DNA of 53,030 nt from a virus (lineage: Duplodnaviria; Caudoviricetes): positions 1-53,030 of the IMG/VR virus record IMGVR_UViG_3300032136_000007; one strand, given 5' to 3'. Positions 22,799 through 52,602 of the stretch are shown here, in pieces (the first letter of the stretch is position 1; each line of letters begins with the position of its first letter). A program made the translations under genes and the position numbers. A model generated the notes under the pieces. That model was not told where the DNA came from. It searched no databases and saw nothing but the letters and a program-made list of their open reading frames with translations.

Positions 22799-22847
22799 AT
22801 TGAAACCCCAAAACCTTATCAACCGGAGTACCACACAGGAGGGCATT

Positions 22848-24627: not shown

Positions 24628-24733
24628 GACTTGGTTAAAGGCCACGCCCCACCAGAACAGGCCGGACCACTGAACCAGTACTCCCCCGGCTGCGGTGCCC
24701 ACAGCCATAGCCAAAGCCGAAGCTGCGGGTCGA

Positions 24734-39081: not shown

Positions 39082-40146
39082 CTACCATTCCGGAATGTGG
39101 ATGTGCTCAACCGGCGATGTGTAGTGCCGCGCCAGTCGGCTCAGCAGCTTGGCAGGATTGCGCAGATCCAGGTAATGCGTTGCCGTGGTGTCATCGCTAG
39201 GGATAGCGTGACCCAACTGCAAGCGCAGCATGAGCAATCCCATACCGCTATCTTCCGGTTGGTGATCGATCCACCAGTCACTGAATGTGCGACGAAAGTC
39301 GTGTGCCGAAACCGCAAAGCCAACCCTACTGGCCAGGGTGCGAATTCGGTTCTTGATGGCCGTGTCCGTGATGCCCAAAAGCCGTTCTTCCTGGGCATCA
39401 GCATTGGCGACCAGATGCAGCTTGAGCAGGAATCCGGTCGTCTGACCAAACACAACACGCCGTCCCCTTCCTCTCCCCTCTGCATCGTACTTGACTTTGT
39501 GCAGGTGCAGACTCCCGGTCATATCCCTGGCAAATGTTATCTCAGATTTGAGGGCTTCGGCAGCCTCAAACTGGCGACAGCCGGTCCCCAAAAGCAAAGC
39601 AAGCATGGCTTGATCTCGAACCCGCAATACACCGGAACAGGCATCGAACAGGGTTTGACACTGTTCGAGGGCCAGGTAGCGCTGTTTAGGCTCTGGCGGC
39701 GGGGGCAGTGGCATCCACGAAGAGATGTCGATGGGCAGGCGTTGAGAAGTATACAGCCAGCGCAGGAACATGCGGACGCGTGTGGCCGTGGAGTGGATGG
39801 TGGCCAGGGCTGGAGGCTTACCCCGGCTGGTGCGGTAGTCGCGCATCAACCAGCTATAGCAGGCCTGCAAGGCATCCTGGGTCAGCGTGTAGCGATGTGA
39901 GGGTCCGTAGTGGCTCCACCATTGCAGGAATGGAGCCAAATGATGTCCGTAGTTGATAGTGGTTTGTTCTGCTTTGGTTGTGCGGATGTGATCGAGATAG
40001 ACAGTGACCAGATCCGCTAACAGCGCAGCGTCAATGGGAGGTGTTGTTCCCTCCCAGGCGATAGAAAGCACACTTGTCTCCTTGTTTGTGGCTGGGGTTG
40101 GGGACGGAGCCAAGGAAATAGTGTGCGCGGAATTGATAGATAACAC
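39082..40146 (-). CDS. int: Tyrosine integrase (probable start GTG 40071)
   Basis: LLGTGCR (R), HDFRR (HxxR), LGH, TTATHY (Y); N-terminal core-binding region. Confidence 0.92.
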   Translation of the reverse strand: MLSINSAHTISLAPSPTPATNKETSVLSIAWEGTTPPIDAALLADLVTVYLDHIRTTKAEQTTINYGHHLAPFLQWWSHYGPSHRYTLTQDALQACYSWLMRDYRTSRGKPPALATIHSTATRVRMFLRWLYTSQRLPIDISSWMPLPPPPEPKQRYLALEQCQTLFDACSGVLRVRDQAMLALLLGTGCRQFEAAEALKSEITFARDMTGSLHLHKVKYDAEGRGRGRRVVFGQTTGFLLKLHLVANADAQEERLLGITDTAIKNRIRTLASRVGFAVSAHDFRRTFSDWWIDHQPEDSGMGLLMLRLQLGHAIPSDDTTATHYLDLRNPAKLLSRLARHYTSPVEHIHIPEW

Positions 40147-40509: not shown

Positions 40510-40873
40510 ACCGGGCGGCTACAAAGACGCCGGGCTAGTACGCACCTGCATAAAGACCAACAGTGAGATCCATCGCATGGTCAAGCTACAGATGGACGAG
40601 TATCCCACCGCACGCAGTCGGCAACTACTGGTGGCTGCTATGTCCTTATTGACCCATCAGCACGGATGGCTAAACAAAATGCTAGACGACATCACCATCA
40701 TGCCGGATGAGCCAATTCGAGTGAATGAGTTGCTGAACCAGATCAATCTTTGGCTACTGAATGCACGCCCTACCCCGAGGGCATTGGTCTACTTGAGTGG
40801 GACAGCCTTTGAACTGCGAACACAAGCTGAAGCCTTGCTCAGCCTGAAGACAATTCGAGGACAGCATGAGTGA
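40490..40873 (+). CDS. Hypothetical protein
   Basis: Overlaps both neighbours. Confidence 0.55.
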   Translation: MATYRPEPGGYKDAGLVRTCIKTNSEIHRMVKLQMDEYPTARSRQLLVAAMSLLTHQHGWLNKMLDDITIMPDEPIRVNELLNQINLWLLNARPTPRALVYLSGTAFELRTQAEALLSLKTIRGQHE

Positions 40874-42170
40874 CTTCATCCCGAACAGTACACAGATGCC
40901 CAATCTCTACCTGGACCGACTCCTGGCCTTGTTGAGCGGAAATGAGTGGAAGGTTGTCAGCTACATGGCTCGCCGCCTCTTTGGGTTCCAAAAGCGCCGG
41001 GATCGGATTTCCATTGGCCAGATATGCAATGGGGTGAAGAACCGCAAGACCGGCCAGCAACTGGACTACGGAACAGGTCTCAATAACGCCACGGTGCTGC
41101 GGGCCTTGGCCGAGTTGGAGACGTACGGGATCGCTCGTCAGTCCGCACCCGCAGATAAGGCAAAGAACATCGCTACGGAGTGGGAGCTGCAACTGAATAG
41201 CGACCAAGTGGATTGGGCCGGTCTGGAAGCACGACAGGAGGCGGGGAAAAAGAGGACCCGAAAGCGGACAAAAGCTGGACGAAAAGCGGCGAACGAAGGA
41301 CCTGGTCCATCCAATAGACCAGGGGCAAATGAAGAACCTGGTCTATCCAATAGACCAGGTCACCTGGTCCATCCAATAGACCAGGTTGATGCCAAACCTA
41401 GTCCATCCAATAGACCACCCCTGGTCCATCCAATAGACGGACAAAAGAAAGGGGAAACAAAGATAGATGGTGATGGTATATCCCAAGAAGAGAATCGCCC
41501 GTTTAATCCGCCAAAGATTCGGGGCAAGGCAGAACGGTATTCAGCGTTGCGAGCTGAGCCGGAGTTGAGAGATCGGGCACAAGTTGCGATGCAGCTGCTA
41601 GGCGTCACGCATTTTGGGAAGATGTTCTCCAAGCGGAAAGAGGCTACTGGACGCAAGATCTTGACCGATCAGGACTGGCAAGAGATCTTGGACTGGTGTG
41701 CTTACTACGAGGGCCGGGTTAGCACCGGGAAAATTCAGATGGATGATGTCGCTCGCCTCCTAGTTGCCAACATTCGAGACGCAGATCCGGTGCCGATTCA
41801 GCGAGAGGCAATACAGATGGCAAACGGCTGGGCCAATCATGTCAGACATGACAGTAATACAGACGGCATGATTCTGGACAATGAGGAAGATGTCGACGAT
41901 GTGGATGATGGGCAGTCGGAACAGGGGGGGATCTGGGGAGAGGCGATGCGGACGCTACGTAGGTCCATGACTCGCCATACATATGCCATCATTCGAGGGG
42001 CGACACTGGTGGAGCAGGGCGAAGGGCGATTGATCGTATCAGTGACAAGCCCAGAAGCGCTTCAGAAGCTGCACGCCATACGGCAGAATGTGGAGAGCGT
42101 TGTGTCACGTATTGCACAACAGCGCATGGATGTTGAGTTTCGAATTGGAGAGCATCGTGGGCAAGCATAG
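40866..42170 (+). CDS. Replication initiator (lambda O-like N-terminus, DnaA N-terminal-like C-terminus)
   Basis: PNSTQMPN.YLD.LL..LSG.EWKV..Y.AR..FGF.K..D.IS; internal iterons; C-terminal IWGEAM..LR..M....Y...I domain. Confidence 0.82.
   Translation: MSDFIPNSTQMPNLYLDRLLALLSGNEWKVVSYMARRLFGFQKRRDRISIGQICNGVKNRKTGQQLDYGTGLNNATVLRALAELETYGIARQSAPADKAKNIATEWELQLNSDQVDWAGLEARQEAGKKRTRKRTKAGRKAANEGPGPSNRPGANEEPGLSNRPGHLVHPIDQVDAKPSPSNRPPLVHPIDGQKKGETKIDGDGISQEENRPFNPPKIRGKAERYSALRAEPELRDRAQVAMQLLGVTHFGKMFSKRKEATGRKILTDQDWQEILDWCAYYEGRVSTGKIQMDDVARLLVANIRDADPVPIQREAIQMANGWANHVRHDSNTDGMILDNEEDVDDVDDGQSEQGGIWGEAMRTLRRSMTRHTYAIIRGATLVEQGEGRLIVSVTSPEALQKLHAIRQNVESVVSRIAQQRMDVEFRIGEHRGQA
41301..41438. 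repeat. Five palindromic iterons, putative replication origin
   Basis: CCT(G/A)GTC(C/T)ATCCAATAGAC at 41301, 41337, 41363, 41397 and 41420. Confidence 0.88.
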
Positions 42171-42639
42171 TTCAGGGTGGATCGCTCGCAAAGCCGGGCA
42201 GCAGTGGGAAGATGCATTGGAAGTCTATCATCAATGGCTAGGTGCCCAGGGCCTAGCCGTGGTCCACAAGACTGGTCCTCAGATTGTGTTCGTCAAGCAG
42301 CGGGGACAGGTGGGTCCCCGGGTGACGGGGCCGGGGCCAGCCGATTACGTGGGCGTGCTCAACTCCGGTGTGTTCGTGGGCTTTGAGGCCAAATCGACTA
42401 GCAGCACGTCGGGCTACTCTATCCCAGCCAAGGCCATGCACCAGCTGCATTGGCTCAATGACATTCGCTCCACGACTGGGGGCTGGGCCAAGGTCTTTTA
42501 CATCGTCCGCTATCGCAAGTTGGATGAAACCTGCATTCACCGAGTCCAGGACATCTTCCCCGGCTCTCGCATTCGCCGGCCCCAGGGGATACTCGTCCCG
42601 GACGGAATCAGTTGGCTAGATGTGCTGAATCGACTGTAG
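42157..42639 (+). CDS. RecU-like Holliday junction resolvase
   Basis: G..WE..L, AVVHK, ADYVG, GFEAKST, HQL..L. Confidence 0.8.
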   Translation: MGKHSSGWIARKAGQQWEDALEVYHQWLGAQGLAVVHKTGPQIVFVKQRGQVGPRVTGPGPADYVGVLNSGVFVGFEAKSTSSTSGYSIPAKAMHQLHWLNDIRSTTGGWAKVFYIVRYRKLDETCIHRVQDIFPGSRIRRPQGILVPDGISWLDVLNRL

Positions 42640-42677
42640 TTCTAAATTCTCTATTCACAGAAAGAAAGGGACCGATC

Positions 42678-43460
42678 ATGTATCACATTGCATTTGCCCT
42701 GTTGGGCGGGGGGACTGGGAAGAGCACCTCCGCCGTCAACGTGGGCCACGCTCTTGCCATGCAGGGCTTGCGTACCCTGATCGTGGACGCTGACCGACAG
42801 GGACAGTGCGCCGTGTTCCTGGGGCGCAACCCGGAGCCTGGGATCCACCAGTGGCTTGGCGGGAACCTCATGGGGCTCAAGGAGCCGTTGGAGAACATCG
42901 TGCGGCAGACGGGCCGGGGGCAATTGGACCTGCTGCCGGGCAGCCAGCAGACCGAAATGCTGCAACGCATGTTGGTGGCCTTCGATAGCCCTCCCCGCTG
43001 GCTCAAAGATCAGCTGGAGGCCGACCGGGAGTTCTTCGCCCATTATGACGTGGTGGTGTGGGACACGGCTCCCACGGGGCGGCTGCTGGACATGGTGCTG
43101 CATCTGGCTGACATCGCCGTGCTGCCGGTGCCGGCAGATCTCAAAGGTCAATCCAGCCTGGCCGACACGCTGGCCATCTTGCCGGCCAGCACAGAGCGCA
43201 TCGTCCTGCCGACACGGGTGCCCACTGCGCAGCGGGTGTCTACCGACTTTCTGCGGGGCTATCAGGTGGACTATCCAGGGACCATGTACACCGACGATGA
43301 GGGCAAGGCGCTCTATGTTCCGGAGCGGGCATCGGTGCGTACATCCCAGGCGTTGGGCCAGACCATTTTCGAGTATGGTCCCAACTCGGACGTGGCGGAG
43401 GTCTACCGGCGATTGGCCTACTATCTTGGCCTGCGGGCGTATCAGGCGGTGCGGGCATGA
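42678..43460 (+). CDS. parA: ParA-family ATPase
   Basis: GGGTGKSTSAVN, LIVDADRQG, LDLLPG, YDVVVWDTAP, IFEYGPNS. Confidence 0.88.
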   Translation: MYHIAFALLGGGTGKSTSAVNVGHALAMQGLRTLIVDADRQGQCAVFLGRNPEPGIHQWLGGNLMGLKEPLENIVRQTGRGQLDLLPGSQQTEMLQRMLVAFDSPPRWLKDQLEADREFFAHYDVVVWDTAPTGRLLDMVLHLADIAVLPVPADLKGQSSLADTLAILPASTERIVLPTRVPTAQRVSTDFLRGYQVDYPGTMYTDDEGKALYVPERASVRTSQALGQTIFEYGPNSDVAEVYRRLAYYLGLRAYQAVRA

Positions 43461-44167
43461 GCAGTCTATATCGTACTCGACCAGGACAAGGGCAAGGGCG
43501 GACTGCCGTGGTTGACAGTGTGACCGACCAGACTGACGCCCTGCTCTATGACTATAGCCAGATTGACAATCTAGCGACCCGAACCCTCGCTCAGCAAGCC
43601 GCCAGCCAGATTCGCCCCATCCTACGGCGCACAGTGGTCAACGCCTGGACGGTCGGGGATATCTGCAACCGGGTCAAGGCGCAACTGCCTCATGGTCAAT
43701 TTCTGGAATGGGCCAAGGCAGAGTTTGACCCGGATGATCCAGCCTACCGGGGCATCCGCATCAGTATCCGGTCCCTGCAACGATGGATGAATCTGGCCGA
43801 CCAGATCGCCTTGCCCGTGGTGCAGTCGTCCGGTATGAGTCTGGCCGGGCTACTGGAGACGACCGCTCCCTCCACGCCAGAAGAAGTGCGAGAGCAGGTA
43901 TTGGAGGCGGCCCAGGCGGGTAATCCGCCCACCAAGGCCCAGGTCAAAAAGATGAAGAGCGCCCAAGAAACTGAAGAGTCAGGTGGAAGCCAAAAGGACC
44001 GGAGTGCGATGGATGCATCCGAACTGGTGACCATCACGTTACGGCGGGATCTGGCATGGCAATTGTTGGCCTATCTGCAGGGTGACACGGCTCTGGACTT
44101 CGTTGATGAACGAGCCATCACACGGGTGTTGCTAGCCGTGTTGGACGACGAGTTTAAGGAGGAATGA
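43457..44167 (+). CDS. DUF3102-like protein
   Basis: VG.I...VK..LPHGQFLEW...EF...S.RS.QRWM.LA; coupled to parA. Confidence 0.7.
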   Translation: MSSLYRTRPGQGQGRTAVVDSVTDQTDALLYDYSQIDNLATRTLAQQAASQIRPILRRTVVNAWTVGDICNRVKAQLPHGQFLEWAKAEFDPDDPAYRGIRISIRSLQRWMNLADQIALPVVQSSGMSLAGLLETTAPSTPEEVREQVLEAAQAGNPPTKAQVKKMKSAQETEESGGSQKDRSAMDASELVTITLRRDLAWQLLAYLQGDTALDFVDERAITRVLLAVLDDEFKEE

Positions 44168-44168
44168 T

Positions 44169-44696
44169 ATGTGGCGTAACCGTAACGAAACAGTCGCAAT
44201 TGCGGTGCTGATCCTGGTAACGCTTGTTGCCCTGGCGCTGATGCTGACGTTTCCGGTGGATGCACAGGCCGGGGAGCCGGGGGGACTGACCGAGGACCAA
44301 CTGTATGCGGCCCAGGTTGCAGCAGGGGAAGCACCGGCCTCGCTGATGGGGGAGGGGGCTTACACGTTTCTGCTTTGCACCATCGAGAACCGGGTCAACA
44401 GTCCCCGCTTCCCGGACACGTTCCGGGGAGTGGTGGAACATGGCTTCTACGCCCCGCCGAGAACCCTGACATGGATGGAGCATCAGATCGCTGCCCTGTA
44501 CTGGACTGACACATCGGGGTTGTACGACTGCGTAGGTGTTGAGGATGTGTTCTATGTCATCAGCGAACAAGACCGGCAGCGCTTGGGCTTTCCGGAGGGC
44601 GACTTCTGGTTTGGCCGAGAGCTGCCCAGCGGCTACTTGCTGGCCTTGCACTTCTACCGGGACTGGCCGCGACCGGAAAGGGATGAGAAACCGTGA
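44169..44696 (+). CDS. SleB-like cell wall hydrolase with signal peptide
   Basis: N-terminal TM/signal ending AQA; VAAGEA (catalytic Glu), IENRVNSPRFPDTFRGVV. Confidence 0.75.
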   Translation: MWRNRNETVAIAVLILVTLVALALMLTFPVDAQAGEPGGLTEDQLYAAQVAAGEAPASLMGEGAYTFLLCTIENRVNSPRFPDTFRGVVEHGFYAPPRTLTWMEHQIAALYWTDTSGLYDCVGVEDVFYVISEQDRQRLGFPEGDFWFGRELPSGYLLALHFYRDWPRPERDEKP

Positions 44697-44911
44697 TCAG
44701 CAAAGCGAGACAAGCCTACCTGGACAAGATGTCAGAGCGCATGTGGATTCGTTATTTGGACACCGGAACTTTGGCCTACTTACCTCGCTATCGGGCTGAG
44801 TGGCTGATCGCTTATAGCGTGGCCGTTCCACATCTGTCCGTAGTGCCACCATCGCAATGCAGAATCATTGGAGGCGAGGATGAACGGGGAGAAACCGATA
44901 GCCTGGTCTGA
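44693..44911 (+). CDS. Hypothetical protein
   Basis: GTGA overlap with the upstream gene. Confidence 0.45.
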   Translation: MISKARQAYLDKMSERMWIRYLDTGTLAYLPRYRAEWLIAYSVAVPHLSVVPPSQCRIIGGEDERGETDSLV

Positions 44912-45152
44912 GGAACAAACAGCGCACATTTTGGAAGCCCTGGACCGGATGATTGCCGAGGGCGAATGGGCCAGAGAAGTTCGGGATCTGTTGACGGGGC
45001 AGCAACGGCGCAAACCGCAGATGGGCAAGGTCGTTGTGCCCGGCCCTGTGCCCGAGCAGGGCGGCGGTGCGGAGAATGAAGTACAGGTGCAGTATCAATA
45101 CAACCATCAGATGTACACCAAGCAAATCAAACCACAGGAGAACAAGCCATGA
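44868..45152 (+). CDS. Hypothetical protein
   Basis: Operon continuity, GAGG RBS. Confidence 0.5.
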   Translation: MEARMNGEKPIAWSEEQTAHILEALDRMIAEGEWAREVRDLLTGQQRRKPQMGKVVVPGPVPEQGGGAENEVQVQYQYNHQMYTKQIKPQENKP

Positions 45153-45505
45153 CAACCCAACGCAGCATTTTCGTGTATCCCGACCCGGCCACCGTCGATG
45201 TGGACGAGGCTACCTTGACCCCGTTTCAGTTGGTCCTGTTCATCTTGGCCCTATACCTGCGGGCCGACACATCCCAGGTGCAGCCGGACCAACTGCTCAC
45301 CGACGAGGGGAGCATCTTCCCGGCCAGACTGGAAGATGGCACCCCCTGGCAAGCGTTCGTGCGCATCAAGGAGGACCGGGTACAGGTGGGGAGGGTGAGA
45401 GAGCCGGGCGAGGCATTCGACAACTTGATGCTGTGGGAGGCATCGCAAGCCCAAGAGCAGATTGCCCACATCGAGCCTACTGCCCTGCTGCCGGTTCCAG
45501 CCTGA
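45149..45505 (+). CDS. Hypothetical protein
   Basis: AGGAG RBS, ATGA overlap. Confidence 0.6.
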   Translation: MTTQRSIFVYPDPATVDVDEATLTPFQLVLFILALYLRADTSQVQPDQLLTDEGSIFPARLEDGTPWQAFVRIKEDRVQVGRVREPGEAFDNLMLWEASQAQEQIAHIEPTALLPVPA

Positions 45506-45674
45506 TCCATGGATAGCAGTACGCAAGATTGACAGGCCCACAACGTAGACGGTCCACGGTCGCCAACCTGCCCGGTGCGACCGTGGACCTAGGGACGGGT
45601 GTCCCGGCCACATTGTACCAGCTGGGGCACCCTTTGAAAATTCTGAATAAATAGATTTTAGGACGGGTATCCCC

Positions 45675-47735
45675 ATGTACGACTATGGTCCGCCAGTAGT
45701 GGAAGAGAAGCAGAGCAAGACCGCTGACCTGATTCGGGCTGCTATCGGCCTGGCGCTATTCGTTGGATTGACCGTGGGGATCGTGATGGTGATCAGTCCC
45801 CTGGCTGGCTGGCTGAATCGCAAGTTGTCGACGGGTTGGGAGTTGGAACTACAGCGGGAGCGAGCGCAGCAGTGGCATGAGTTGATCATGATTGGTCAGC
45901 AGGTCGTCATCGCTGTACTGTTGGTCGGGGTTGTGGCATTGATCTTGCTCGGTGTCGTCTCGCTGATTCTCAAGATAGACCGTGCGCGGCGGATGGTCTA
46001 TGCCAAGGATGGCGTCTACCCGGTTGAACGGCGAACGGTTGGCGGTGGCTGGAAGCGTGTGTTGCGCAAGTTGCTGGGCCGGCCTGTCCCGCCGATCCGA
46101 GAGATTGTGATCGATCACAATCTCTCACCAGTCCATGTGCGGGTCTATGGGGATGAAGATGGTCTACTGACTTTTCAGGGTAGTCCAGACTGGCAGGACG
46201 AGCGTAACCGACTCGCTTCTGTCCAGGCAACAAAGCAGGCCCGAAACATTCAGGCGCTGACCCACGGGGGCGGGACACATCTGCATCGACCAACCGCTGG
46301 GGCAATGCGGGCGCTGATGGAGCAACGGCAGCCAAAGCAGATGGGCTATGCTCCAAGTCCACCAGACATCGACGACGACCTACCGGTGCAAATTGTTCAG
46401 CCGACCCTTCTGGAAGCAGTCAAACAATCCGACGATCCTGACGAGTTGGTACTGGCCTATGATCCGGACACGGGCGATCCGGTCTACTGGTCGGTTCGTT
46501 ATGATCCGGGGATGGCTGTTCATGGGGCACAGCGCCAGGGTAAGACCTATCTCGCCCTGGTTCCCATGCTGGCCGCAGCCGCCCAGGACTGGCACGTCAT
46601 CGTCCTGGACCCGGAGGGCGGCAAGGACTTCCGGCCCTTCGCCCACGTGTTCGAGTGGCACGCCACGTCCACACAGATGGTCGTGCCGCAGCTGCAGGTC
46701 ATCATGCAGGAGTTTGACCGTCGCCATGCGCTGCTGGATGAAGCCCAGGTGGGCGACTTCCGGGCGTTGCCGGAAGGCACCCTGCGCCGCACCCTGCTGG
46801 TCATGGAGGAATTCAAGAAACTGCGGGCCAGTATGGATGCCATGACTTTGCGCACCTTCGACGGACTGGTGTCCGAACTAGTGACCCGCGGGGCCAAGGT
46901 GGGGATCTACCTAATGGTCCTTGCCCAGGACAAGGGCAAGGACATGGGTGGATGGCCAGAAACCCTGGACGTCAACCTCACGGGCAAGGCGACCGTGCGC
47001 CAGGGCAAGAAAGGCTACGGGAACGTGGGCTACTTCAATGCCCACAAGCTCGGCCCTCGCGAGGTCGGCTATCAGGACACGGTTGTCAAAGCGTTCGAGG
47101 TGGCCGGCCCCAGTCTCAAGCGACTGGAAGCCCGCATCCGCCCTCCGACCCCGCTCATCCCCGATGACCTGCCGGGGCTTGAATCTCAAAATCAAGACCC
47201 ATTGCCGGGAAGGGAGATCGTGCATGTGCCAGATATTCAAGACGTTGACGAGTCGTTGCAGTGGGACGATGTGGTGGACCAGTGGTTCGCTGCCAACCCG
47301 CAGGCGTTGGAAGGGCCACCCAACGGGATCAACGATCTGGCCCGGACTATCGCCGCGGCGGACGGGTATCCCCCGGACCCGGACCACGTATCGGGATGGC
47401 CGTTCAATTGGCGGCAGAAGCAGTCCGTGGCTCACGAGTACTACCATCGACGCCGGGCACAGCACGAAGCAGGGGAGTGGTCCCCGTCGTCGCCTGCTCA
47501 TGTGGCTGCTACCGAAACGCCTGGGTTGGACAATGCGCCTGGGGACGAGCAATCTGTCCCGGCCCCTGGTCATGGTGCGCCAGAAGCCGAGACAACAGAC
47601 CTGAGCAAGATCGGCACCTACTTGCTGCTGGACTGGCTGGAAACCTATCCTCTGGACAGCGAGGCCGGCCAGCGCATCTATCGAGAGTTGGATCGGCGCA
47701 AGGTGCCCGGTCTGCCCAGGCTGCAAAGCGTGTAG
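45675..47735 (+). CDS. Membrane-anchored FtsK/SpoIIIE/TraB-like ATPase
   Basis: Two N-terminal TM helices; VHGAQRQGKT Walker A, VIVLDPEGG, EFDRRH..L, LLVMEEF Walker B, RGAKVGIYLMVLAQ. Confidence 0.8.
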   Translation: MYDYGPPVVEEKQSKTADLIRAAIGLALFVGLTVGIVMVISPLAGWLNRKLSTGWELELQRERAQQWHELIMIGQQVVIAVLLVGVVALILLGVVSLILKIDRARRMVYAKDGVYPVERRTVGGGWKRVLRKLLGRPVPPIREIVIDHNLSPVHVRVYGDEDGLLTFQGSPDWQDERNRLASVQATKQARNIQALTHGGGTHLHRPTAGAMRALMEQRQPKQMGYAPSPPDIDDDLPVQIVQPTLLEAVKQSDDPDELVLAYDPDTGDPVYWSVRYDPGMAVHGAQRQGKTYLALVPMLAAAAQDWHVIVLDPEGGKDFRPFAHVFEWHATSTQMVVPQLQVIMQEFDRRHALLDEAQVGDFRALPEGTLRRTLLVMEEFKKLRASMDAMTLRTFDGLVSELVTRGAKVGIYLMVLAQDKGKDMGGWPETLDVNLTGKATVRQGKKGYGNVGYFNAHKLGPREVGYQDTVVKAFEVAGPSLKRLEARIRPPTPLIPDDLPGLESQNQDPLPGREIVHVPDIQDVDESLQWDDVVDQWFAANPQALEGPPNGINDLARTIAAADGYPPDPDHVSGWPFNWRQKQSVAHEYYHRRRAQHEAGEWSPSSPAHVAATETPGLDNAPGDEQSVPAPGHGAPEAETTDLSKIGTYLLLDWLETYPLDSEAGQRIYRELDRRKVPGLPRLQSV

Positions 47736-47796: not shown

Positions 47797-48003
47797 ATGA
47801 GACCCAAGTTGTCATCCGAGGCTATTGAAGCCATTGAAGAGATGTTGAGTCGGGCGGTCCAGGCCTCGCCGGATGGGTTTGCCCAGGTGTGGATGACAAT
47901 TCACCTGGAGCCGGTAGGGGAGGGGCGTTCGGTAGTGCGCCAGTTGTCGCTCAATCCGGTGCCGGGGATGACGGTGCGTCTGCCGAGGAGCAAGCGGGGG
48001 TAG
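47797..48003 (+). CDS. Small, probably leaderless protein (possibly DUF2292/YezD-like)
   Basis: ATG 8 nt after the -10 box; alpha-beta-beta pattern (G.A.V.M.IH). Confidence 0.5.
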   Translation: MRPKLSSEAIEAIEEMLSRAVQASPDGFAQVWMTIHLEPVGEGRSVVRQLSLNPVPGMTVRLPRSKRG

Positions 48004-48259
48004 GTTTAGAGTCTTCTCAACTGAATACGCCTGACAGAAGCCAAGAGGCCGGGGCGCAAGCGGGAGACGATCATCGTCTTCGCTTGTGTCCTGGCCTTCG
48101 TTATTGAGGGTGCACGATGAAACCAGTAGACCCCTACACCCGGGCGGATGGCTGAAGTAAGTTCAGCGACCAACTGCCCTATCTGCTGGACGGTATGATT
48201 GATCGCATCCGCTCGGTTACCGAAGAACCGAGCGGTAAAGTTATAGAAGGGATTATTTG

Positions 48260-49063
48260 ATGGCCGCTAAACAAAAAGAGCAACAGCCAGATTTTACGTT
48301 TGACGTGACGGACGTTGAGATTTGGGATATTGGCAGGGTGATTCCCTATCCGACGAACCCGAAAATTCATGACGACCATGCCGTCGCAGAAATGGCCGGG
48401 ATGATCAAAGAATTTGGTTGGACCTACCCGATCCTCGTGGATGATGAGGGGGTGATTCTGGCTGGCCACAAGCGGCGCAAGGCTGCGATCATGCTAGGGT
48501 TGTCCAGAGTACCAGTCCTGGTCAAGCAAGGGCTGACCAGCGCCCAGAAGCGGGCCTACCGTATTGCAGACAATCGGCTCACGGAGAATAGCCCCTGGGA
48601 CAACAGTGCTTTGATTCTAGAACTGGAAGTGTTTCGAGACGAAACGGGCGGTCTGGAATTTACGGGGTTCACCGACGCCGACCTAAGCAATCTCAAGATT
48701 TTTGAGGACGACGATGAAGCAGGAGAGGGGGAGAACGGTGGCGCTTCCGATGGCTCTCTCTTGGAGTTGATTGATGTCACCATAGACGAGCCGAAACACG
48801 AAGTTAAGCCGGGAGAAGTTTGGGAATGTGGTCGGCATATTCTCGTGTGTGCCGAGGTAGTCGATGGATGGGCGACCTGGGTCTCTTTCCTCGCTGGCGA
48901 TGAAACCCTATTTGCTCCGTATGCTGGACCCTTTGTCCCGTTGAGCTTGAAATCAGAGGTCCACCAAATCGTGATGGTACAACCAGATCCTTACATCGCT
49001 GGCCATATCCTTGATCGGTACAGCGAGGTCAAGGGAGAGGATGTTATCAAGCGGCATGATTAG
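48260..49063 (+). CDS. ParB/Srx N-terminal domain fused to a collapsed methyltransferase-like remnant
   Basis: PYPTNPKIH, IKEFGWTYPILVD..GVILAGHKR..AA, AYRIADNRL; C-terminal GEVWECGRHILVC and DPYIAGHILDRY. Confidence 0.8.
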   Translation: MAAKQKEQQPDFTFDVTDVEIWDIGRVIPYPTNPKIHDDHAVAEMAGMIKEFGWTYPILVDDEGVILAGHKRRKAAIMLGLSRVPVLVKQGLTSAQKRAYRIADNRLTENSPWDNSALILELEVFRDETGGLEFTGFTDADLSNLKIFEDDDEAGEGENGGASDGSLLELIDVTIDEPKHEVKPGEVWECGRHILVCAEVVDGWATWVSFLAGDETLFAPYAGPFVPLSLKSEVHQIVMVQPDPYIAGHILDRYSEVKGEDVIKRHD

Positions 49064-50120
49064 GACTGGGGGAAGTTGGAATCCAGAACAGCGTCAATTG
49101 TACTTCATGGCTGGGAGCTATCCGCAGGAATCCATAATGGTCACGAGAACAGAAACGGATGGAGTTTGGAACCGTGAGCGAAACCAGTATTTTTTGGCCA
49201 CAAATCAAGATATGACAAAACATATCATTCACACAGGCGGTTCATGGTCGGAGGAGCAGAGGAATCGTTATTTCCTGGCTACCGACACCAATAAAACCAT
49301 GGATCTAATGCAGAATGGGCGATTGATCTATCACCATCTTTTGGTTGCGGTCAATGAGATTGACGAACGCACGGAGCAGGTGATGAATCAGGCCAGTAGC
49401 CTTGGGGCGCAATGGTTCATCGATTCAGGAATCTTCAACCTCACCAACGATCACATGCGCGCCCACGGGATTACTATGGATCGGGCCTTGGCCCTGGCCC
49501 CGGAAGAAATCGACGGGTTTGATCTCCTGTTCGAGAAGTACGTTGAGATCCTCAGCCGATGGAAAGACCGATGTTGGGGATACATTGAGCTGGACCAGGG
49601 AGGAAAAGAAAACAAGATCAGGACCAGAACCAAGCTCGAAAAAATGGGCTTCCGTCCAATCCCTGTTTACCATCCTTTCAATGATGGATGGGACTATTTT
49701 GACTACTTGGCAGAGCGGTACGACCGTATTTGTTTTGGGAATGTGGTCCAGGCTAGTAACGCAGTTCGAAAGCGGTTGTTGGCTACCATTTGGCAGCGAA
49801 AGCAGAAGTACCCGGATCTTTGGGTGCATTTGCTGGGTGTCACCCCAAACCAATTCCTCAACGCCTATCCGGTGGATTCGGGAGACTCGTCAAGCTGGCT
49901 CGGGTCGGTTCGGTGGTCAGGATACACACCAAGAGCGGCACTTCGTACGTTCGGGCTGATGCCGAAAAATTTCCAATATGCACTTGGTGAGGTCGATATG
50001 CCGGGCCGGGAATATGCCAAGGCGGTTGCCATGTCCGCCTATGGGTCATCGATGGCGATCCGAGGGTGGCGCAGCTACATTGAGAGATTGAACGAATTCG
50101 GCGTGGAGGTTCATCCATGA
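49056..50120 (+). CDS. dpdA: DpdA / TGT-like deoxyribosyltransferase
   Basis: FIDSG, ELD, PIPVYH, VHLLG and DSSSW TGT-barrel motifs; clustered with queD/queE/folE. Confidence 0.75.
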   Translation: MIRTGGSWNPEQRQLYFMAGSYPQESIMVTRTETDGVWNRERNQYFLATNQDMTKHIIHTGGSWSEEQRNRYFLATDTNKTMDLMQNGRLIYHHLLVAVNEIDERTEQVMNQASSLGAQWFIDSGIFNLTNDHMRAHGITMDRALALAPEEIDGFDLLFEKYVEILSRWKDRCWGYIELDQGGKENKIRTRTKLEKMGFRPIPVYHPFNDGWDYFDYLAERYDRICFGNVVQASNAVRKRLLATIWQRKQKYPDLWVHLLGVTPNQFLNAYPVDSGDSSSWLGSVRWSGYTPRAALRTFGLMPKNFQYALGEVDMPGREYAKAVAMSAYGSSMAIRGWRSYIERLNEFGVEVHP

Positions 50121-50482
50121 ATCAATCTGTGGTCCTCTATGCGGTGGTGCGCTTCACCGTGCCTGGTTTCCACAGGTGGCCGGGAGCGCCAGCGTCTCGA
50201 AGCTATCTCCGCGAGCGGCATCGACACCTGTTTTACATGGAAGTGAAACTGGAGACATTTCACGAGGAACGAGAAGTAGAGTTCCATGACCTCTTGGCTG
50301 AAAGCAAGGATTTGTTCCCAGGTGGAGAGCTTGATGACCGGTCTTGCGAGACGATGGCTAGAACCATGGTAAATCAAATCTCCGGCCTGTACCCAGGCCG
50401 AAGATTGGAGGTTTCGGTTTTCGAGGACAATGAGGTGGGAGCGGTGGTTACAGTAGAACCTCAACGTAACCAGGGCGGGTAA
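50117..50482 (+). CDS. dpdL: DpdL-like T-fold protein (putative CDG decarboxylase)
   Basis: GFHRWP, LRERHRHLF (LxxxHRHxF), REVEF, SCE, VFEDNEVGA. Confidence 0.7.
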   Translation: MNQSVVLYAVVRFTVPGFHRWPGAPASRSYLRERHRHLFYMEVKLETFHEEREVEFHDLLAESKDLFPGGELDDRSCETMARTMVNQISGLYPGRRLEVSVFEDNEVGAVVTVEPQRNQGG

Positions 50483-50840
50483 TCGTAACCGTTCCGCCGA
50501 ACTCGTTGAAGTAAACATACTCGCCGGTCTCGATGTTGAACTCGGTGTCTTCAACTTCGAAGGTTTCGCTGATTTCGTGCTCGAAGAAAACCTGATCGGC
50601 CCAGGCCCAATCGCCGGCGGGCTTAGGAGTGAGTTTCAAGAGCGCCAGCCCACCAGGGCGAAGATGGCGAATCCCGTTGTCGTTGGGGGCGAGTTTCAAT
50701 GTCGGGCTGATAGCTTCGAGCCTCAAGGTGTACAGGTCGCCTTCCTGGTCAGTACATTCCAGAATGGAACCATCAGGGGCGGCGAACCGTGCGCCAATAA
50801 ACAGGTCATTAGGAGTGGCAAATTTGGTGGAGCTAGTCAT
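50448..50840 (-). CDS. Hypothetical protein inserted antisense in the modification cluster
   Basis: AAAGGAG RBS; acidic, beta-rich; overlaps the dpdL 3' end by 35 nt. Confidence 0.7.
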   Translation of the reverse strand: MTSSTKFATPNDLFIGARFAAPDGSILECTDQEGDLYTLRLEAISPTLKLAPNDNGIRHLRPGGLALLKLTPKPAGDWAWADQVFFEHEISETFEVEDTEFNIETGEYVYFNEFGGTVTITRPGYVEVLL

Positions 50841-50981
50841 GGAAATTCTCCTTTGTTGTTTGAAATTGGTAGAGTTGCCTGCACGCCTATTGTCCCATAT
50901 ATTCGCCTAGAAGACTACATTGAATATAGATAAAATAAAGATAAATCTGTGTTTTGTCGTCTTAAATCTGAGGAGGTTGTT

Positions 50982-51377
50982 TTGTACATCATCACTAAGC
51001 AATTCCATTTCAGTGCGGCTCATGCGCTCTATGGGCTGCCTCCGGGACATCAATGTTCAGTCTTCTACCCGGATGGCCGAACAGGGCGCATCCACGGTCA
51101 TAACTATGTCGTGGAGGTGGAGTTATCTGCCGAGGTTGTGGATGCCCTGGGGTTTGTTGTGGACTATGGGGATCTAGCTCCGCTGAAGACCTACATTGAC
51201 CGAGAGCTCGATCACCAGAATCTGAACGAGGTTCTGCGGGCAAAGCTGCCGAATGGACAGACGAGCGCCGAGAATCTTGCTCGCCATTTGTTTGACTGGT
51301 GCCAGGATCGTTGGCCGCAGACCTCGGCGGTGCGGGTGAGCGAGACTCCCAAGACCTGGGCGGAGTATCGGCCATGA
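50982..51377 (+). CDS. queD: 6-carboxytetrahydropterin synthase QueD
   Basis: FSAAH, C...HGHNY, GFVVDYG, LDHQNLN, TSAENLA, VSETPKTWAEY; AGGAGG RBS with TTG start. Confidence 0.93.
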   Translation: MYIITKQFHFSAAHALYGLPPGHQCSVFYPDGRTGRIHGHNYVVEVELSAEVVDALGFVVDYGDLAPLKTYIDRELDHQNLNEVLRAKLPNGQTSAENLARHLFDWCQDRWPQTSAVRVSETPKTWAEYRP

Positions 51378-52066
51378 TGTATCTAGTCAACGACATTTAT
51401 GCAACTGTTCAGGGTGAAGGGGTTCAAACAGGCGTGCCAATGGTCCTCTTGCGCCTCCACGGTTGTGGGGTGGGGTGTCCCTGGTGTGACACCAAGGAGA
51501 CGTGGAGCATCCAGCCGAAGAATGAACTTCTGGTAAAGGAATTGGACCTCTCCCCGATCTTGGGAGCGAATGCCCATTATGCGCGGCTGTCTGGTACGGA
51601 GATTGCCGTCTACATACGGAGGTCGTTCCCGGCCTTTCGTGAGGGATGGGTGTTGGTCACCGGAGGGGAGCCAGCAGACCAGGATCTGAGGGGATTGGTA
51701 TCCGCCCTGCATGATGTTGGCTTTCGTGTTGCCCTGGAAACTAGCGGAACCGCTATGGGCCATGTCAACGCTCGATTTGATTGGGTTTGTGTGTCCCCAA
51801 AGATTGACATGCCGGGCGGACGAACAGTCCTCGGCGCAGCCTTGGCAGAAGCGGACGAAATCAAACAGGTGGTGGGTTCACTAAAAGACCTTGAACGGTT
51901 GGACTCTCTACTAGAAGCACACGGCATGAATCTCAAACTTGGAGTACAGGTATGTCTACAGCCAGTCAGTCAAAGCAAGAAGGCGACAGAACTTTGTCTC
52001 GAAACGGTACAGGAGAAGGGGTGGAGGTTGTCAATCCAGACCCACAAGTACATCGGGGTGTCGTAG
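51374..52066 (+). CDS. queE: 7-carboxy-7-deazaguanine synthase QueE (radical SAM)
   Basis: TVQGEG, RLHGCGVGCPWCDT, VTGGEP, ETSG, VSPK, LQP, WRLSIQTHK. Confidence 0.95.
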   Translation: MMYLVNDIYATVQGEGVQTGVPMVLLRLHGCGVGCPWCDTKETWSIQPKNELLVKELDLSPILGANAHYARLSGTEIAVYIRRSFPAFREGWVLVTGGEPADQDLRGLVSALHDVGFRVALETSGTAMGHVNARFDWVCVSPKIDMPGGRTVLGAALAEADEIKQVVGSLKDLERLDSLLEAHGMNLKLGVQVCLQPVSQSKKATELCLETVQEKGWRLSIQTHKYIGVS

Positions 52067-52602
52067 ATCACGACCGGTTGCTATGGTTGGGCCGGGAAAC
52101 GTTGATCGCTCTGGGCGAAGACCCTGACCGACCCGGATTAGTTGGAACGCCGAGACGTTGGGCGAATATGTGGCGGGAATTCATCGCCTACGACCCTGGC
52201 AAAACGGAGACCGCATTTGAATCGGTCGAGGTAGATCAAATGGTGGTGGTGTCCGGGATGCGAGTGTGGAGCATGTGCGAGCATCACCTGTTGCCATTTT
52301 GGGCGGACATCAGCATTGCGTATATCGCCGGGGAAAAGGTTCTTGGGCTGTCAAAATTTGCCCGCATTGCCCACCAGTTCGCCCACCAACTACAGATTCA
52401 GGAGCGAATGGTCCAGCAGATAGCCGATGAGGTATGTCGGCTTACGGGGTCGGCGGACGTTGCGGTGTTAGCACGAGGTCAACACCTTTGCATGATTATG
52501 AGAGGAATCAAGACGGACGGGTTGATGACCACCTCGGTCATGCGTGGATTGTTCCGGGAGACCGATGCCAGAGCCGAGTTTCTATCTCTGGCCAACAGCT
52601 AA
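51952..52602 (+). CDS. folE: GTP cyclohydrolase I (alternative start GTG 52021)
   Basis: GEDPDRPGL.GTP.R, SMCEHHLLPF, GLSKFAR, LQIQER, HLCMIMRG. Confidence 0.96.
   Translation: MSTASQSKQEGDRTLSRNGTGEGVEVVNPDPQVHRGVVDHDRLLWLGRETLIALGEDPDRPGLVGTPRRWANMWREFIAYDPGKTETAFESVEVDQMVVVSGMRVWSMCEHHLLPFWADISIAYIAGEKVLGLSKFARIAHQFAHQLQIQERMVQQIADEVCRLTGSADVAVLARGQHLCMIMRGIKTDGLMTTSVMRGLFRETDARAEFLSLANS

What the first reader, a model, noticed from the sequence alone, without database searches (positions are those of the whole stretch)
44169..47735. Secreted SleB-like hydrolase and membrane FtsK/TraB-like translocase in a complete tailed phage: possible cell-to-cell DNA spread
Seen: the replication block carries ParA, a signal-peptide SleB-like lytic transglycosylase and a 2-TM FtsK-family ATPase. 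Established: a single TraB (FtsK-like) protein transfers dsDNA in Streptomyces plasmids and actinomycete integrative elements. Inference: the phage may move its DNA across septa or between cells of a filamentous host without virions. Alternatively the SleB protein is a displaced, secreted endolysin.
Basis: partly seen in the sequence, partly recalled or inferred. Interest (0 to 1): 0.7.

Follow-up and report, generated by a model that had tools for sequence, protein, structure and literature searches.

The report
Phage wall hydrolase beside membrane FtsK-like pump
An uncultured tailed phage encodes an exported SleB-type cell-wall cutter and, 1 kb downstream, a membrane-anchored FtsK-type DNA-pump ATPase of an unstudied phage subfamily; both genes are real, but nothing tested here shows that they move phage DNA between cells.

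Summary
Both genes are real and lie at the stated coordinates, in an IMG/VR tailed-phage record estimated 95% complete.

- **Hydrolase (44169-44696):** 175 aa, one N-terminal hydrophobic segment with an AxA-type site. It misses the curated Hydrolase_2 cut-off, but its model superposes on SleB catalytic domains (Z 10.3 and 9.9; next hit 2.2).
- **ATPase (45675-47735):** 686 aa, two N-terminal TM helices, an FtsK/SpoIIIE motor and a conserved C-terminal domain. It belongs to a large unnamed metagenomic family (2091 representatives at E<=1e-3).
- **Phylogeny:** this family sits apart from TraB, TcpA, FtsK and cultured-phage FtsK-likes. AU tests reject neither a TraB nor a TcpA sister position.
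- **Pairing:** found only in one small syntenic clade (5 of 5 assessable contigs). It was not found at 5 more distant viral loci (4 distinct phages).
- **Other points:** the hydrolase is the only recognisable wall hydrolase in the phage. The host is unknown, and no clt-like repeat array or other transfer gene was recognised.

Best reading: an exported endolysin next to an uncharacterised membrane DNA translocase. Cell-to-cell spread is unsupported but not excluded. This scan noted analogous hydrolase/FtsK modules on other genomes; the PaV-LD module is not homologous beyond the ATPase superfamily.

The parts
44169..44696 (+). 175-aa exported SleB-fold (Hydrolase_2-like) peptidoglycan hydrolase. 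The SleB-type catalytic domain spans residues 36-164 (nt 44274-44660). Glu54 (nt 44328-44330) is invariant.
   Evidence: ORF. Model pLDDT 84.6. VIA-align Z 10.3 and 9.9 to SleB catalytic domains. Foldseek top 3 PDB hits are SleB. BFVD top hits are phage cell-wall hydrolase/SleB proteins. ESM Atlas hits are Hydrolase_2 clusters. E54 is invariant in 12 sequences.
44190..44246 (+). N-terminal hydrophobic segment (residues 8-26) of the hydrolase, followed by PVDAQA. It is either a Sec signal peptide or a signal anchor.
   Evidence: Hydropathy 2.96. Helix 3-26 followed by a disordered linker in the model. A-x-A-type motif in most of the 12 rows. Three homologues (P0008, P0013, P0014) carry an N-terminal extension of roughly 60-100 residues before this segment, which would make it an anchor if their called starts are right.
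44693..45505 (+). Three small soluble ORFs (72, 94 and 118 aa) between hydrolase and ATPase. They are conserved in close relatives and have no family match.
   Evidence: ORFs. tblastn matches in L005 (all three) and L006 (orf118). No Pfam or PHROG hit. No TM segment. Start/stop overlaps of 4, 44 and 4 nt.
45551..45589 (.). Perfect 13-bp inverted repeat with a 13-nt loop, in the 169-bp gap upstream of the ATPase gene. Possibly a terminator, an operator or a protein-binding site.
   Evidence: It is not followed by a T-run and was not called by the terminator scan.
45675..47735 (+). 686-aa membrane-anchored FtsK/SpoIIIE-family P-loop ATPase. TM1 nt 45738-45794; TM2 nt 45903-45959; conserved linker; Walker A nt 46524-46547; Walker B-like LLVMEE nt 46797-46811; conserved C-terminal domain (residues ~525-600) nt 47247-47474.
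46099..46126 (.). Perfect 28-bp palindrome inside the ATPase gene, encoding the conserved peptide EIVIDHNL. It is the only palindrome with arms of 9 nt or more in the 53-kb window.
   Evidence: In L004 and L005 one base of the 3' arm differs, breaking one of the central 12 arm pairs; it is degraded in L006.
42612..44167 (+). ParA-type ATPase (42612-43460) and a 236-aa protein (43457-44167), translationally coupled to the hydrolase gene.
   Evidence: Homologues of the 236-aa protein occur in L005, L006 and L010.
47797..48003 (+). 68-aa ORF downstream of the ATPase gene, 83% identical to its counterpart in L006.
   Evidence: No family match.

Best explanation
Two neighbouring but separable functions.

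(1) The 175-aa protein is exported by its N-terminal signal or anchor. It cuts peptidoglycan with a SleB/CwlJ-type catalytic domain (Glu54 inferred as the catalytic acid) and most likely serves as the phage's endolysin.

(2) The 686-aa protein belongs to a large, phage-associated, uncharacterised branch of the FtsK/SpoIIIE pumps. Two N-terminal helices hold it in the cytoplasmic membrane. The motor presumably forms the usual hexameric ring and translocates double-stranded DNA. The conserved C-terminal domain is proposed to select the phage's own DNA.

I take its most likely job to be intracellular: keeping or clearing replicating or lysogenic phage DNA at the membrane or division septum, alongside the ParA, RecU and integrase functions encoded around it.

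Shown: the genes, the hydrolase fold, the ATPase motifs and membrane segments, and synteny in relatives. Inferred: enzymatic activity, hexamer formation, DNA pumping, DNA recognition and the biological role.
For: Hydrolase:
- SleB fold at Z 10.3 and 9.9, against 2.2 for the next entry.
- Consistent Hydrolase_2/SleB matches in PDB, BFVD and the ESM Atlas.
- It is the only wall hydrolase recognised among the roughly 60 ORFs scanned.
- Amidase_2, Amidase_3, Phage_lysozyme, SLT and GH25 are absent in six frames of the record.
- Hydrolase_2 is a regular lysin domain. Signal peptides were predicted for 27.9% of lysins of Gram-negative phages and 7.5% of Gram-positive ones (PMC8223927, passages).
- In phage PaV-LD, the hydrolase and holin that flank an FtsK/SpoIIIE gene behaved as bacteriolytic proteins (record; PMC9096620 abstract).

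ATPase:
- Pfam and PHROG matches. Walker A, the acidic pair E378/E379 and Q418 are invariant or nearly so across 45 relatives.
- The two-TM-plus-motor architecture recurs across the family.
- The gene lies in the replication/partition block RepO-RecU-ParA.
- The more distant relatives that could be placed lie on IMG/VR viral contigs beside methylase and DnaC/IstB-like genes.
- FtsK/SpoIIIE homologues are already widely annotated in cultured phages. A search with the E. coli FtsK motor matched 577 phage records, some only over the gamma domain. Their function is untested (PMC4113786 and PMC4569894, passages).
Against: - The hydrolase gene is not in a lysis cassette. It is translationally coupled inside the early RepO-RecU-ParA operon. 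The only small two-TM holin-like ORF seen (23344-23637) lies about 20.5 kb away.
- Hydrolase and ATPase co-occur on 5 of 5 contigs where both could be assessed: the window, L005, L006, and the contigs holding P0005+P0010 and P0004+P0011.
- An analogous hydrolase-plus-FtsK arrangement occurs in PaV-LD and was noted by this scan on other genomes.
- An unrecognised endolysin could hide among the many ORFs without a match, for example 22800-23255. The complete relative G007 shows none of the six hydrolase families either, so absence of a match is weak evidence.
- ParA is not a neighbour of the ATPase in the distant loci.
- The C-terminal domain shows no significant likeness to FtsK gamma (probability 0.1%).
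Confidence: 0.5

Rival explanations
1. Conjugation-like spread. The membrane ATPase recognises a site on the phage genome and pumps double-stranded phage DNA into a neighbouring cell or compartment, as Streptomyces TraB does. The exported SleB-type enzyme opens the wall locally, as wall hydrolases do in Gram-positive conjugation systems.
For: - The architecture (membrane anchor, FtsK-type motor, conserved C-terminal domain) parallels what is described for TraB (PMC4447253 and PMC5365140, passages).
- The best-scoring named relatives are conjugative. PDB 6o1w, 'DNA translocase coupling protein', scores E 1.4e-5. pCW3 TcpA scores 78.7 bits with the family profile, the highest of the 13 references.
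- AU tests do not reject a sister position to Tra (p 0.122) or to TcpA/B (p 0.161).
- Hydrolase and ATPase co-occur on 5 of 5 assessable contigs.
- The hydrolase sits in an early operon rather than a lysis cassette.
- Possible cis sites lie in or near the ATPase gene: a perfect 28-bp palindrome, a 13-bp-arm hairpin, and a 14-mer motif with 6 matches against 0.66 expected.
- L009 carries a second FtsK_SpoIIIE protein near the membrane one, reminiscent of TcpA plus TcpB.
Against: - The ML tree puts the family outside the clade that holds Tra, TcpA/B, FtsK and phage FtsK-likes.
- The family profile scores pIJ101 Tra at 37.4 bits, lower than E. coli FtsK at 47.5.
- The C-terminal domain is not significantly similar to that of pIJ101 Tra.
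- No cluster of 4 or more copies of any 8-mer within 300 bp was found other than the replication iterons.
- No relative of this hydrolase family lies within 10 kb of the ATPase at 5 distant loci (4 distinct phages). No Hydrolase_2, Amidase_2/3, Phage_lysozyme, SLT or GH25 match was found in those records (G006 only for Hydrolase_2).
- No relaxase, VirB4-like ATPase or other transfer gene was recognised among the ORFs scanned.
- The host is unknown and nothing shows it is filamentous.
- The phage has a full virion module.
Confidence: 0.1
2. The ATPase is an accessory or host-interaction gene that does not act on the phage's own DNA transfer or segregation. Examples would be superinfection exclusion at the membrane, interference with host division or chromosome handling, or counter-defence. 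The hydrolase is again the endolysin.
For: - PHROG 1358 is filed under 'moron, auxiliary metabolic gene and host takeover'.
- Neighbours vary between lineages, which is typical of accessory genes.
- P0005 carries a motor region closer to another subclade, while its N- and C-terminal parts resemble P0002. That pattern suggests frequent exchange.
Against: - The family keeps a conserved long linker and a C-terminal domain with an HTH-like stretch, which suggests DNA recognition.
- The position in the replication block is conserved in the close clade.
- No defence-family library was searched for this protein.
Confidence: 0.15
3. Hydrolase and ATPase form one envelope-spanning device used for something other than cell-to-cell spread. 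One example is localised wall remodelling at the site where phage DNA is handled or released.
For: Conserved co-occurrence in the close clade. Both proteins are membrane-targeted. An analogous module occurs in PaV-LD.
Against: The linkage is confined to syntenic relatives, so it carries no independent evidence of function. It is absent in the distant loci. There is no known precedent.
Confidence: 0.08

Closest known systems
TcpA, the FtsK/SpoIIIE-type coupling protein of Clostridium perfringens plasmid pCW3. In record NC_010937 it is the CDS at 25899-27482, just downstream of tcpM. PDB 6o1w is named 'DNA translocase coupling protein'. The name TcpA for these entries is recalled; a paper title naming TcpA was seen in a reference list.
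   Same: Two N-terminal hydrophobic segments followed by an FtsK-type P-loop motor. It is the best-scoring named relative: 78.7 bits with the family profile and the best PDB match, E 1.4e-5.
   Different: It is not grouped with the family in the ML tree; the AU test is undecided. TcpA works within a multi-gene Tcp locus (relaxase, VirB4-like ATPase, glucosaminidase) that has no recognised counterpart here. The linker and C-terminal domain are unrelated.
Streptomyces TraB/Tra (pSVH1, pIJ101): single-protein dsDNA conjugative translocases.
   Same: Membrane-associated FtsK-like motor with a C-terminal DNA-recognition part. No relaxase is needed (PMC4447253 and PMC5365140, passages).
   Different: pIJ101 Tra scores only 37.4 bits, below E. 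coli FtsK, and lies in a separate clade. The C-terminal domains are not significantly alike. No array of direct 8-bp repeats was found. The setting is a tailed phage, not a plasmid or AICE with spd and traR genes.
FtsK/SpoIIIE-like proteins of cultured phages: PHROG 1358, Mycobacterium phage Courthouse gp201, Bacillus phages BCP78 and Gemini, Geobacillus phage PT9.1, and Thermobifida phage P1312 ORF63.
   Same: A phage-borne FtsK-family ATPase outside the packaging module, with untested function.
   Different: tblastn with the window protein finds none of them. They cluster with cellular FtsK rather than with this family. Gemini and PT9.1 pair the ATPase with a 'replication/relaxation protein', which is absent here.
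Planktothrix phage PaV-LD block ORF127L (FtsK/SpoIIIE) to ORF122L (endolysin), including ORF123 (M23 endopeptidase) and ORF124 (holin).
   Same: A membrane-associated FtsK-like ATPase a few small genes away from anchored wall hydrolases, close to a Holliday-junction resolvase gene, in a phage of a filamentous host.
   Different: It is not homologous beyond the ATPase superfamily: ORF127L scores 30.3 bits with the family profile, and there is no match to the SleB-like profile or to the small ORFs. Its hydrolases are of other types and were studied as lysis proteins (PMC9096620 abstract).
SleB/CwlJ spore-cortex lytic enzymes (PDB 4f55, 4fet) and phage Hydrolase_2 lysins.
   Same: Catalytic-domain fold. 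An invariant Glu sits at the end of the first domain helix, in the AAGEAP motif. The protein is small and single-domain, like phage 'cell wall hydrolase SleB' proteins.
   Different: It is below the curated Pfam and TIGR cut-offs. It lacks SleB's N-terminal peptidoglycan-binding domain and has an N-terminal signal or anchor instead.

Membership tests
FtsK/SpoIIIE family (Pfam PF01580) | Match to the curated motor-domain model at or above the gathering score | tested here: met
   24.5 bits against a cut-off of 24, E 2.1e-5, residues 251-379. 27 of 45 family members match at E<=0.001.
FtsK/SpoIIIE family (Pfam PF01580) | Walker A GxxxxGK[ST], an acidic Walker B pair, and a conserved Gln after the following strand | tested here: met
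   G284, G289, K290 and E379 are invariant and Q418 nearly invariant across 45 sequences. T291 and E378 are invariant in the 10-sequence set. Assigning these residues to named motifs is my reading.
Streptomyces TraB-type conjugative translocase | Groups with TraB/Tra in a phylogeny of the motor domain | tested here: inconclusive
   The ML tree places the family outside the reference clade that holds both Tra proteins (SH-aLRT 90). The AU test of family plus Tra as one clade gave p 0.122. Only two Tra sequences were sampled.
Streptomyces TraB-type conjugative translocase | C-terminal DNA-recognition domain that binds direct 8-bp repeats of a clt locus | tested here: inconclusive
   A conserved C-terminal domain exists. 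It has no significant hhalign match to the pIJ101 Tra C-terminus. No cluster of 4 or more exact 8-mers per 300 bp was found apart from the ori iterons. DNA binding cannot be tested with these tools.
Streptomyces TraB-type conjugative translocase | Carried on a conjugative plasmid or AICE together with spd spread genes and a GntR-type TraR | tested here: not met
   The carrier is a tailed phage with TerL, portal and capsid genes. No GntR regulator was recognised among the ORFs scanned. Spd proteins have no model that I could apply.
TcpA-type coupling protein (pCW3) | Two N-terminal TM segments followed by an FtsK-like motor | tested here: met
   TM helices at 22-40 and 77-95, Walker A at 284. 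Best named match by profile score and in the PDB.
TcpA-type coupling protein (pCW3) | Embedded in a transfer locus with a relaxase, a VirB4-like ATPase and channel proteins | tested here: not met
   None was recognised among the ORFs scanned with Pfam or PHROGs. The only other large ATPase, at 32174-33964, is a classical AAA protein.
TcpA-type coupling protein (pCW3) | Groups with TcpA in a phylogeny | tested here: inconclusive
   Not grouped in the ML tree. AU p 0.161.
Cellular FtsK | Four-TM N-terminal domain and a gamma winged-helix domain | tested here: not met
   Two TM segments only. hhalign against E. coli FtsK gamma gave probability 0.1% over 11 columns.
SleB/CwlJ cell-wall hydrolases (Pfam PF07486 Hydrolase_2; TIGR02869) | Match to the curated sequence model above the cut-off | tested here: not met
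   14.3 bits against 27. 13.9 bits in the six-frame search. TIGR02869: 16 bits against 236.5. No profile hit to SleB in the PDB by sequence.
SleB/CwlJ cell-wall hydrolases (Pfam PF07486 Hydrolase_2; TIGR02869) | Catalytic-domain fold | tested here: met
   Z 10.3 (112 of 122 residues, rmsd 3.1 A) and Z 9.9 to SleB catalytic domains; next entry 2.2. Foldseek probability 0.90 for 4f55.
SleB/CwlJ cell-wall hydrolases (Pfam PF07486 Hydrolase_2; TIGR02869) | Catalytic glutamate | tested here: inconclusive
   Glu54 is invariant in 12 sequences and lies early in the aligned range. No residue-level superposition was available. That SleB needs a catalytic Glu comes from PMC12331253 (passage).
Phage endolysin (functional class) | The phage's peptidoglycan-degrading enzyme, exported or holin-dependent, usually next to a holin | tested here: inconclusive
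   It is the only recognised wall hydrolase and has an N-terminal export segment. However, no holin is adjacent: the nearest small two-TM ORF is at 23344-23637.

The most novel reading that the evidence does not exclude
A tailed phage carries a minimal, TraB-like, single-motor system for moving its own double-stranded genome through the envelope into adjacent cells without virions. The membrane FtsK-like ATPase would recognise a cis site, for which the 28-bp palindrome inside its own gene, the upstream hairpin or the 14-mer motif are candidates. The exported SleB-type transglycosylase would open the wall.
Probability: 0.08. Interest if true: 0.85.

Novelty: new variant of a known kind. Interest (0 to 1): 0.35.

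Why it matters
Phage-encoded FtsK/SpoIIIE homologues are annotated in hundreds of cultured phages, yet none has a tested function in the papers I saw. This window points to a separate, large and apparently phage-associated branch: 2091 representatives at E<=1e-3. It has a fixed architecture of two TM helices, a long conserved linker, the motor and its own C-terminal domain.

If that branch pumps phage DNA at the membrane, it bears on two questions. One is how temperate phages segregate or keep their genomes. The other, in the boldest reading, is whether phages can spread without particles.

The hydrolase also extends the SleB/CwlJ fold to sequences that the curated models miss. That is useful for lysin annotation in uncultured phages.

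Tried and rejected
- **Shallow-alignment model:** AlphaFold2 of the hydrolase on a 3-sequence alignment gave pLDDT 50.7 and was not used.
- **Sequence searches of the PDB for the hydrolase:** the single sequence and the profiles A2 and A4 gave no SleB hit.
- **Similarity of the ATPase to cultured collections:** blastn of the region against phages, and tblastn of the ATPase against cultured phages and PLSDB plasmids, gave no match.
- **Genome contexts:** two scans of genome contigs for relatives of the ATPase confirmed no locus, so no bacterial genome context or host was obtained. Alignment A5 was too diverse for the locus finder.
- **Hydrolase-side scans:** scans of viral and metagenome contigs returned only contigs already known, plus one that ends before the ATPase position.
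- **Sequencing runs:** no RNA holder listed. Two DNA runs labelled sediment metagenome were returned, one of them a possible source.
- **Complex prediction:** ATPase residues 1-130 with the mature hydrolase gave no answer, score 0.00.
- **TdtA of Thermus transjugation:** considered and set aside. It is described as a HerA-type ATPase with a NurA neighbour (PMC5365140, passages).
- **ESM Atlas lead 'pRL2-11':** an Actinomycetota cluster scoring 0.95. pRL2 appears in papers on Streptomyces linear plasmids (listing only). The gene's function was not found and the lead was not pursued.
- **ORF 22800-23255 as a hidden endolysin:** no informative PDB, Pfam or PHROG match.
- **Unavailable resources:** Contexts of most of the 2091 family members could therefore not be examined.

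Full report
**Setting.** The window is a whole IMG/VR virus record of 53,030 bp, estimated 95% complete. It encodes a large terminase (170-1888), portal (2019-4370), major head protein (7623-8837) and tail proteins. It also encodes a tyrosine integrase (39082-40146, minus strand), a Gp3-like recombination directionality factor (36546-37643, minus strand), an O-like replication initiator (40866-42170), a RecU-type resolvase (42088-42639) and a ParA ATPase (42612-43460). The description 'tailed temperate phage with a replication/partition block' holds. No tRNA gene was found.

**The hydrolase (44169-44696).** The 175-aa product has one strongly hydrophobic segment, residues 8-26, followed by PVDAQA. 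An A-x-A-type motif at this place recurs in most rows of a 12-sequence alignment, by my reading.
- Curated sequence models barely see it: Hydrolase_2 at 14.3 bits against a cut-off of 27, 13.9 bits in six frames, and TIGR02869 SleB at E 0.0082. Sequence and profile searches of the PDB found nothing relevant.
- Only 11 relatives were found among 5.8 billion clusters, and none carries a Pfam label.
- A model built on 3 sequences was useless (pLDDT 50.7). With 12 sequences it reached pLDDT 84.6.
- Foldseek's three best PDB matches are SleB catalytic domains (E 0.05 to 0.27). Most named BFVD matches are phage 'cell wall hydrolase / SleB' proteins (best E 0.014, none at or below 0.001).
- VIA-align gives Z 10.3 (rmsd 3.1 A, 112 residues) and Z 9.9 for the two SleB entries, against 2.2 for the next one.
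- The ESM Atlas independently lists Hydrolase_2 clusters (feature score 0.93; TM 0.54-0.57).

I accept a SleB/CwlJ-type catalytic domain for residues 36-164. Glu54 is invariant and is the likely catalytic acid by position, which is an inference. That SleB depends on a catalytic glutamate comes from a passage of PMC12331253.

**The ATPase (45675-47735).** The 686-aa product has the following parts:
- TM helices at 22-40 and 77-95.
- A conserved linker of about 150 residues.
- Walker A GAQRQGKT at 284-291.
- An acidic pair, E378/E379.
- A conserved Gln418.
- A conserved C-terminal domain (about 525-600) with an HTH-like stretch, GINDLARTIA.

It reaches the Pfam FtsK_SpoIIIE cut-off narrowly (24.5 bits against 24) and matches PHROG 1358 (E 3.1e-11).

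Four close relatives exist (38-51% identity). A profile of the five found 2091 representatives at E<=1e-3, 297 at 1e-10 and 78 at 1e-30 among 1.84 billion proteins. Most full-length hits that I inspected are 500-650 aa, and most share the N-terminal hydrophobic segments and a Walker A near residue 240. Of 45 aligned members, 27 match FtsK_SpoIIIE and 10 match DUF87/HerA.

Of 30 clusters looked up, two carry an organism name: a Caldilineaceae MAG and a Rhizobiales/Hyphomicrobiales MAG. The family's host range therefore seems broad, and the window's host is unknown.

**Which FtsK relatives?** The profile's best solved match is 6o1w, 'DNA translocase coupling protein' (E 1.4e-5), followed by EccC proteins. 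I fetched named references from public records: pCW3 TcpA, TcpB and TcpF; pIJ101 Tra and a Streptomyces californicus homologue; E. coli FtsK; four phage FtsK-likes; an Enterococcus plasmid protein; and R388 TrwB and TrwK.

With the 45-sequence family profile, the scores in bits were:

| Reference | Bits |
|---|---|
| TcpA (pCW3) | 78.7 |
| Courthouse gp201 | 71.0 |
| PT9.1 gp25 | 58.4 |
| BCP78 FtsK-like | 54.5 |
| E. coli FtsK | 47.5 |
| Gemini gp67 | 45.2 |
| Enterococcus plasmid protein | 44.8 |
| pIJ101 Tra | 37.4 |
| TcpB (pCW3) | 36.7 |
| S. californicus Tra | 29.5 |
| TrwB (R388) | 12.7 |
| TcpF (pCW3, VirB4-like) | 10.4 |
| TrwK (R388, VirB4) | 6.4 |

I built a quick ML tree of the motor region from 34 family members and the 13 references. 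The 34 were chosen from the 150 listed hits as near-full-length proteins with a Walker A match.
- All family members fall on one side of a branch (SH-aLRT 76).
- The ten FtsK, TcpA/B, Tra and phage references form their own clade (SH-aLRT 90).
- The window groups with P0002-P0004 (SH-aLRT 100).
- AU tests do not reject family plus Tra (p 0.122) or family plus TcpA/B (p 0.161).

The ATPase is therefore a deep, separate branch of the superfamily. The C-terminal domain has no significant likeness to FtsK gamma or to the pIJ101 Tra C-terminus.

**Is the pair a module?**
- In L005 and L006 the hydrolase gene lies upstream of the ATPase gene (about 1.9 kb in L006, about 3 kb in L005), with homologues of the small ORFs between them.
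- P0005 with P0010, and P0004 with P0011, share contig lengths. I take each pair to lie on one contig. With the window, that makes 5 of 5 contigs where both could be assessed.
- These are syntenic relatives, so the linkage is not independent evidence of shared function.
- Five more distant viral loci were found (24-31% identity; L010 and L011 are identical, so 4 distinct phages). The hydrolase profile finds nothing within 10 kb in any of them. Hydrolase_2 is not detected in their records. Their neighbours are methyltransferases, a DnaC/IstB-like ATPase and, in L009, a second FtsK_SpoIIIE protein.
- Scans starting from the hydrolase gave no new informative contig.

**Endolysin question.**
- Across about 60 ORFs scanned with Pfam and/or PHROGs, no other wall hydrolase was recognised.
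- Six-frame searches for Amidase_2, Amidase_3, Phage_lysozyme, SLT and GH25 were negative in the window. They were also negative in six relatives, including the complete G007, so such negatives are weak.
- Hydrolase_2 is a regular lysin domain, and signal peptides are common in lysins (PMC8223927, passages).
- Against a plain lysis role, the gene is translationally coupled within the RepO-RecU-ParA operon (gaps of -28, -4, +1 and -4 nt). The only small two-TM, holin-like ORF (23344-23637) lies behind the tail genes.

**Cis elements.**
- The 169-bp gap before the ATPase gene holds a perfect 13-bp-arm hairpin at 45551-45589.
- Inside the gene, 46099-46126 is a perfect 28-bp palindrome encoding EIVIDHNL. 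It is the only palindrome with arms of 9 nt or more in the window. L004 and L005 keep it except for one base of the 3' arm.
- GGACGGGTATCCCC occurs 6 times at up to 2 mismatches, against 0.66 expected; 0 of 100 shuffles reached 6.
- No local cluster of 4 or more copies of an 8-mer was found, apart from iterons at about 41288-41431 inside the O-like gene, which is the likely origin.

**Literature and earlier notes.**
- TraB is an FtsK-like pump that binds direct 8-bp repeats in clt and works with Spd proteins (PMC4447253, passages).
- Phage FtsK/SpoIIIE homologues are widely annotated, with only suggested roles (PMC4113786 and PMC4569894, passages). My search with the E. coli FtsK motor matched 577 phage records, some only over the gamma domain.
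- This scan had noted four analogous 'FtsK-like plus wall hydrolase' modules on other genomes.
- I checked one of them. PaV-LD has ORF127L (FtsK/SpoIIIE) four genes from an M23 peptidase and an endolysin. It shares only superfamily-level similarity with the window's ATPase and nothing else. Its ORF123 and ORF124 were studied as bacteriolytic endopeptidase and holin (PMC9096620, abstract).

**Verdict.** The most economical reading is an exported SleB-type endolysin next to a membrane-anchored DNA translocase of an uncharacterised phage-associated subfamily, whose role I place in intracellular handling of phage DNA (confidence 0.5). Cell-to-cell transfer remains possible at about 0.1 or less. 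It would need a host, a cis site and a transfer assay.

Noticed in passing
window 41288-41431: Iteron-like direct repeats (units of 36 and 26 bp sharing ACCTGGTCCATCCAATAGACCAGG; 5 local copies of several 8-mers) inside the O-like replication initiator gene. This is probably the phage origin, as in lambda-type O genes.
   Followed up: partly
window 46099-46126: Perfect 28-bp palindrome with GATCGATC at its centre, encoding the conserved peptide EIVIDHNL of the ATPase. It is the only palindrome with arms of 9 nt or more in 53 kb. L004 and L005 keep it except for one base of the 3' arm. It may be chance codon symmetry or a cis site.
   Followed up: partly
window 5923, 40594, 42585(-), 45593, 45661, 47360: The motif GGACGGGTATCCCC occurs 6 times at up to 2 mismatches, against 0.66 expected by shuffling. 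Two exact copies exist: one abuts the ATPase start codon and one lies inside the C-terminal-domain coding region.
   Followed up: partly
window 49011-52602: By my reading of the translations only, and not confirmed by any family search, the genes before the small terminase look like a 7-deazaguanine (preQ0/queuosine-type) DNA-modification set (QueD-, QueE- and GTP cyclohydrolase I-like). ORF 49011-50120 had no Pfam or NCBIfam match. ORF 48257-49063 weakly matches ParB-family NCBIfam models, below their cut-offs.
   Followed up: no
window 23619-25699 and 32174-33964: Unusual cargo lies behind the tail module: a response-regulator receiver domain protein, a CHAT-domain protein and a DUF5131 protein (E 3.5e-89). 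Further on there is a classical AAA ATPase and a DUF3150 protein.
   Followed up: no
P0005 (relative on a 52,723-bp contig): The N- and C-terminal parts are close to P0002, but the motor region groups with another subclade (P0017, SH-aLRT 96). This suggests the motor has been exchanged between lineages while the lineage-specific ends were kept.
   Followed up: partly
L009 9527-11368 and 12745-13938: A distant relative phage carries the membrane FtsK-like gene plus a second, shorter FtsK_SpoIIIE protein (Pfam E 2.1e-22) 1.4 kb downstream. The pairing is reminiscent of TcpA plus TcpB on pCW3.
   Followed up: no
L005 6069-7415 and L010 598-1698: Homologues of the window's 236-aa protein (43457-44167) carry a long C-terminal extension with an LNPPY motif. 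By recall this looks like a DNA methyltransferase motif. The window and L006 copies lack it.
   Followed up: no
L019 (Bacillus phage Gemini) and L020 (Geobacillus phage PT9.1): In these cultured phages the FtsK/SpoIIIE ATPase gene is directly followed by a gene annotated 'replication/relaxation protein'. This is another recurrent phage pairing of an FtsK-like ATPase with a plasmid-type function.
   Followed up: no
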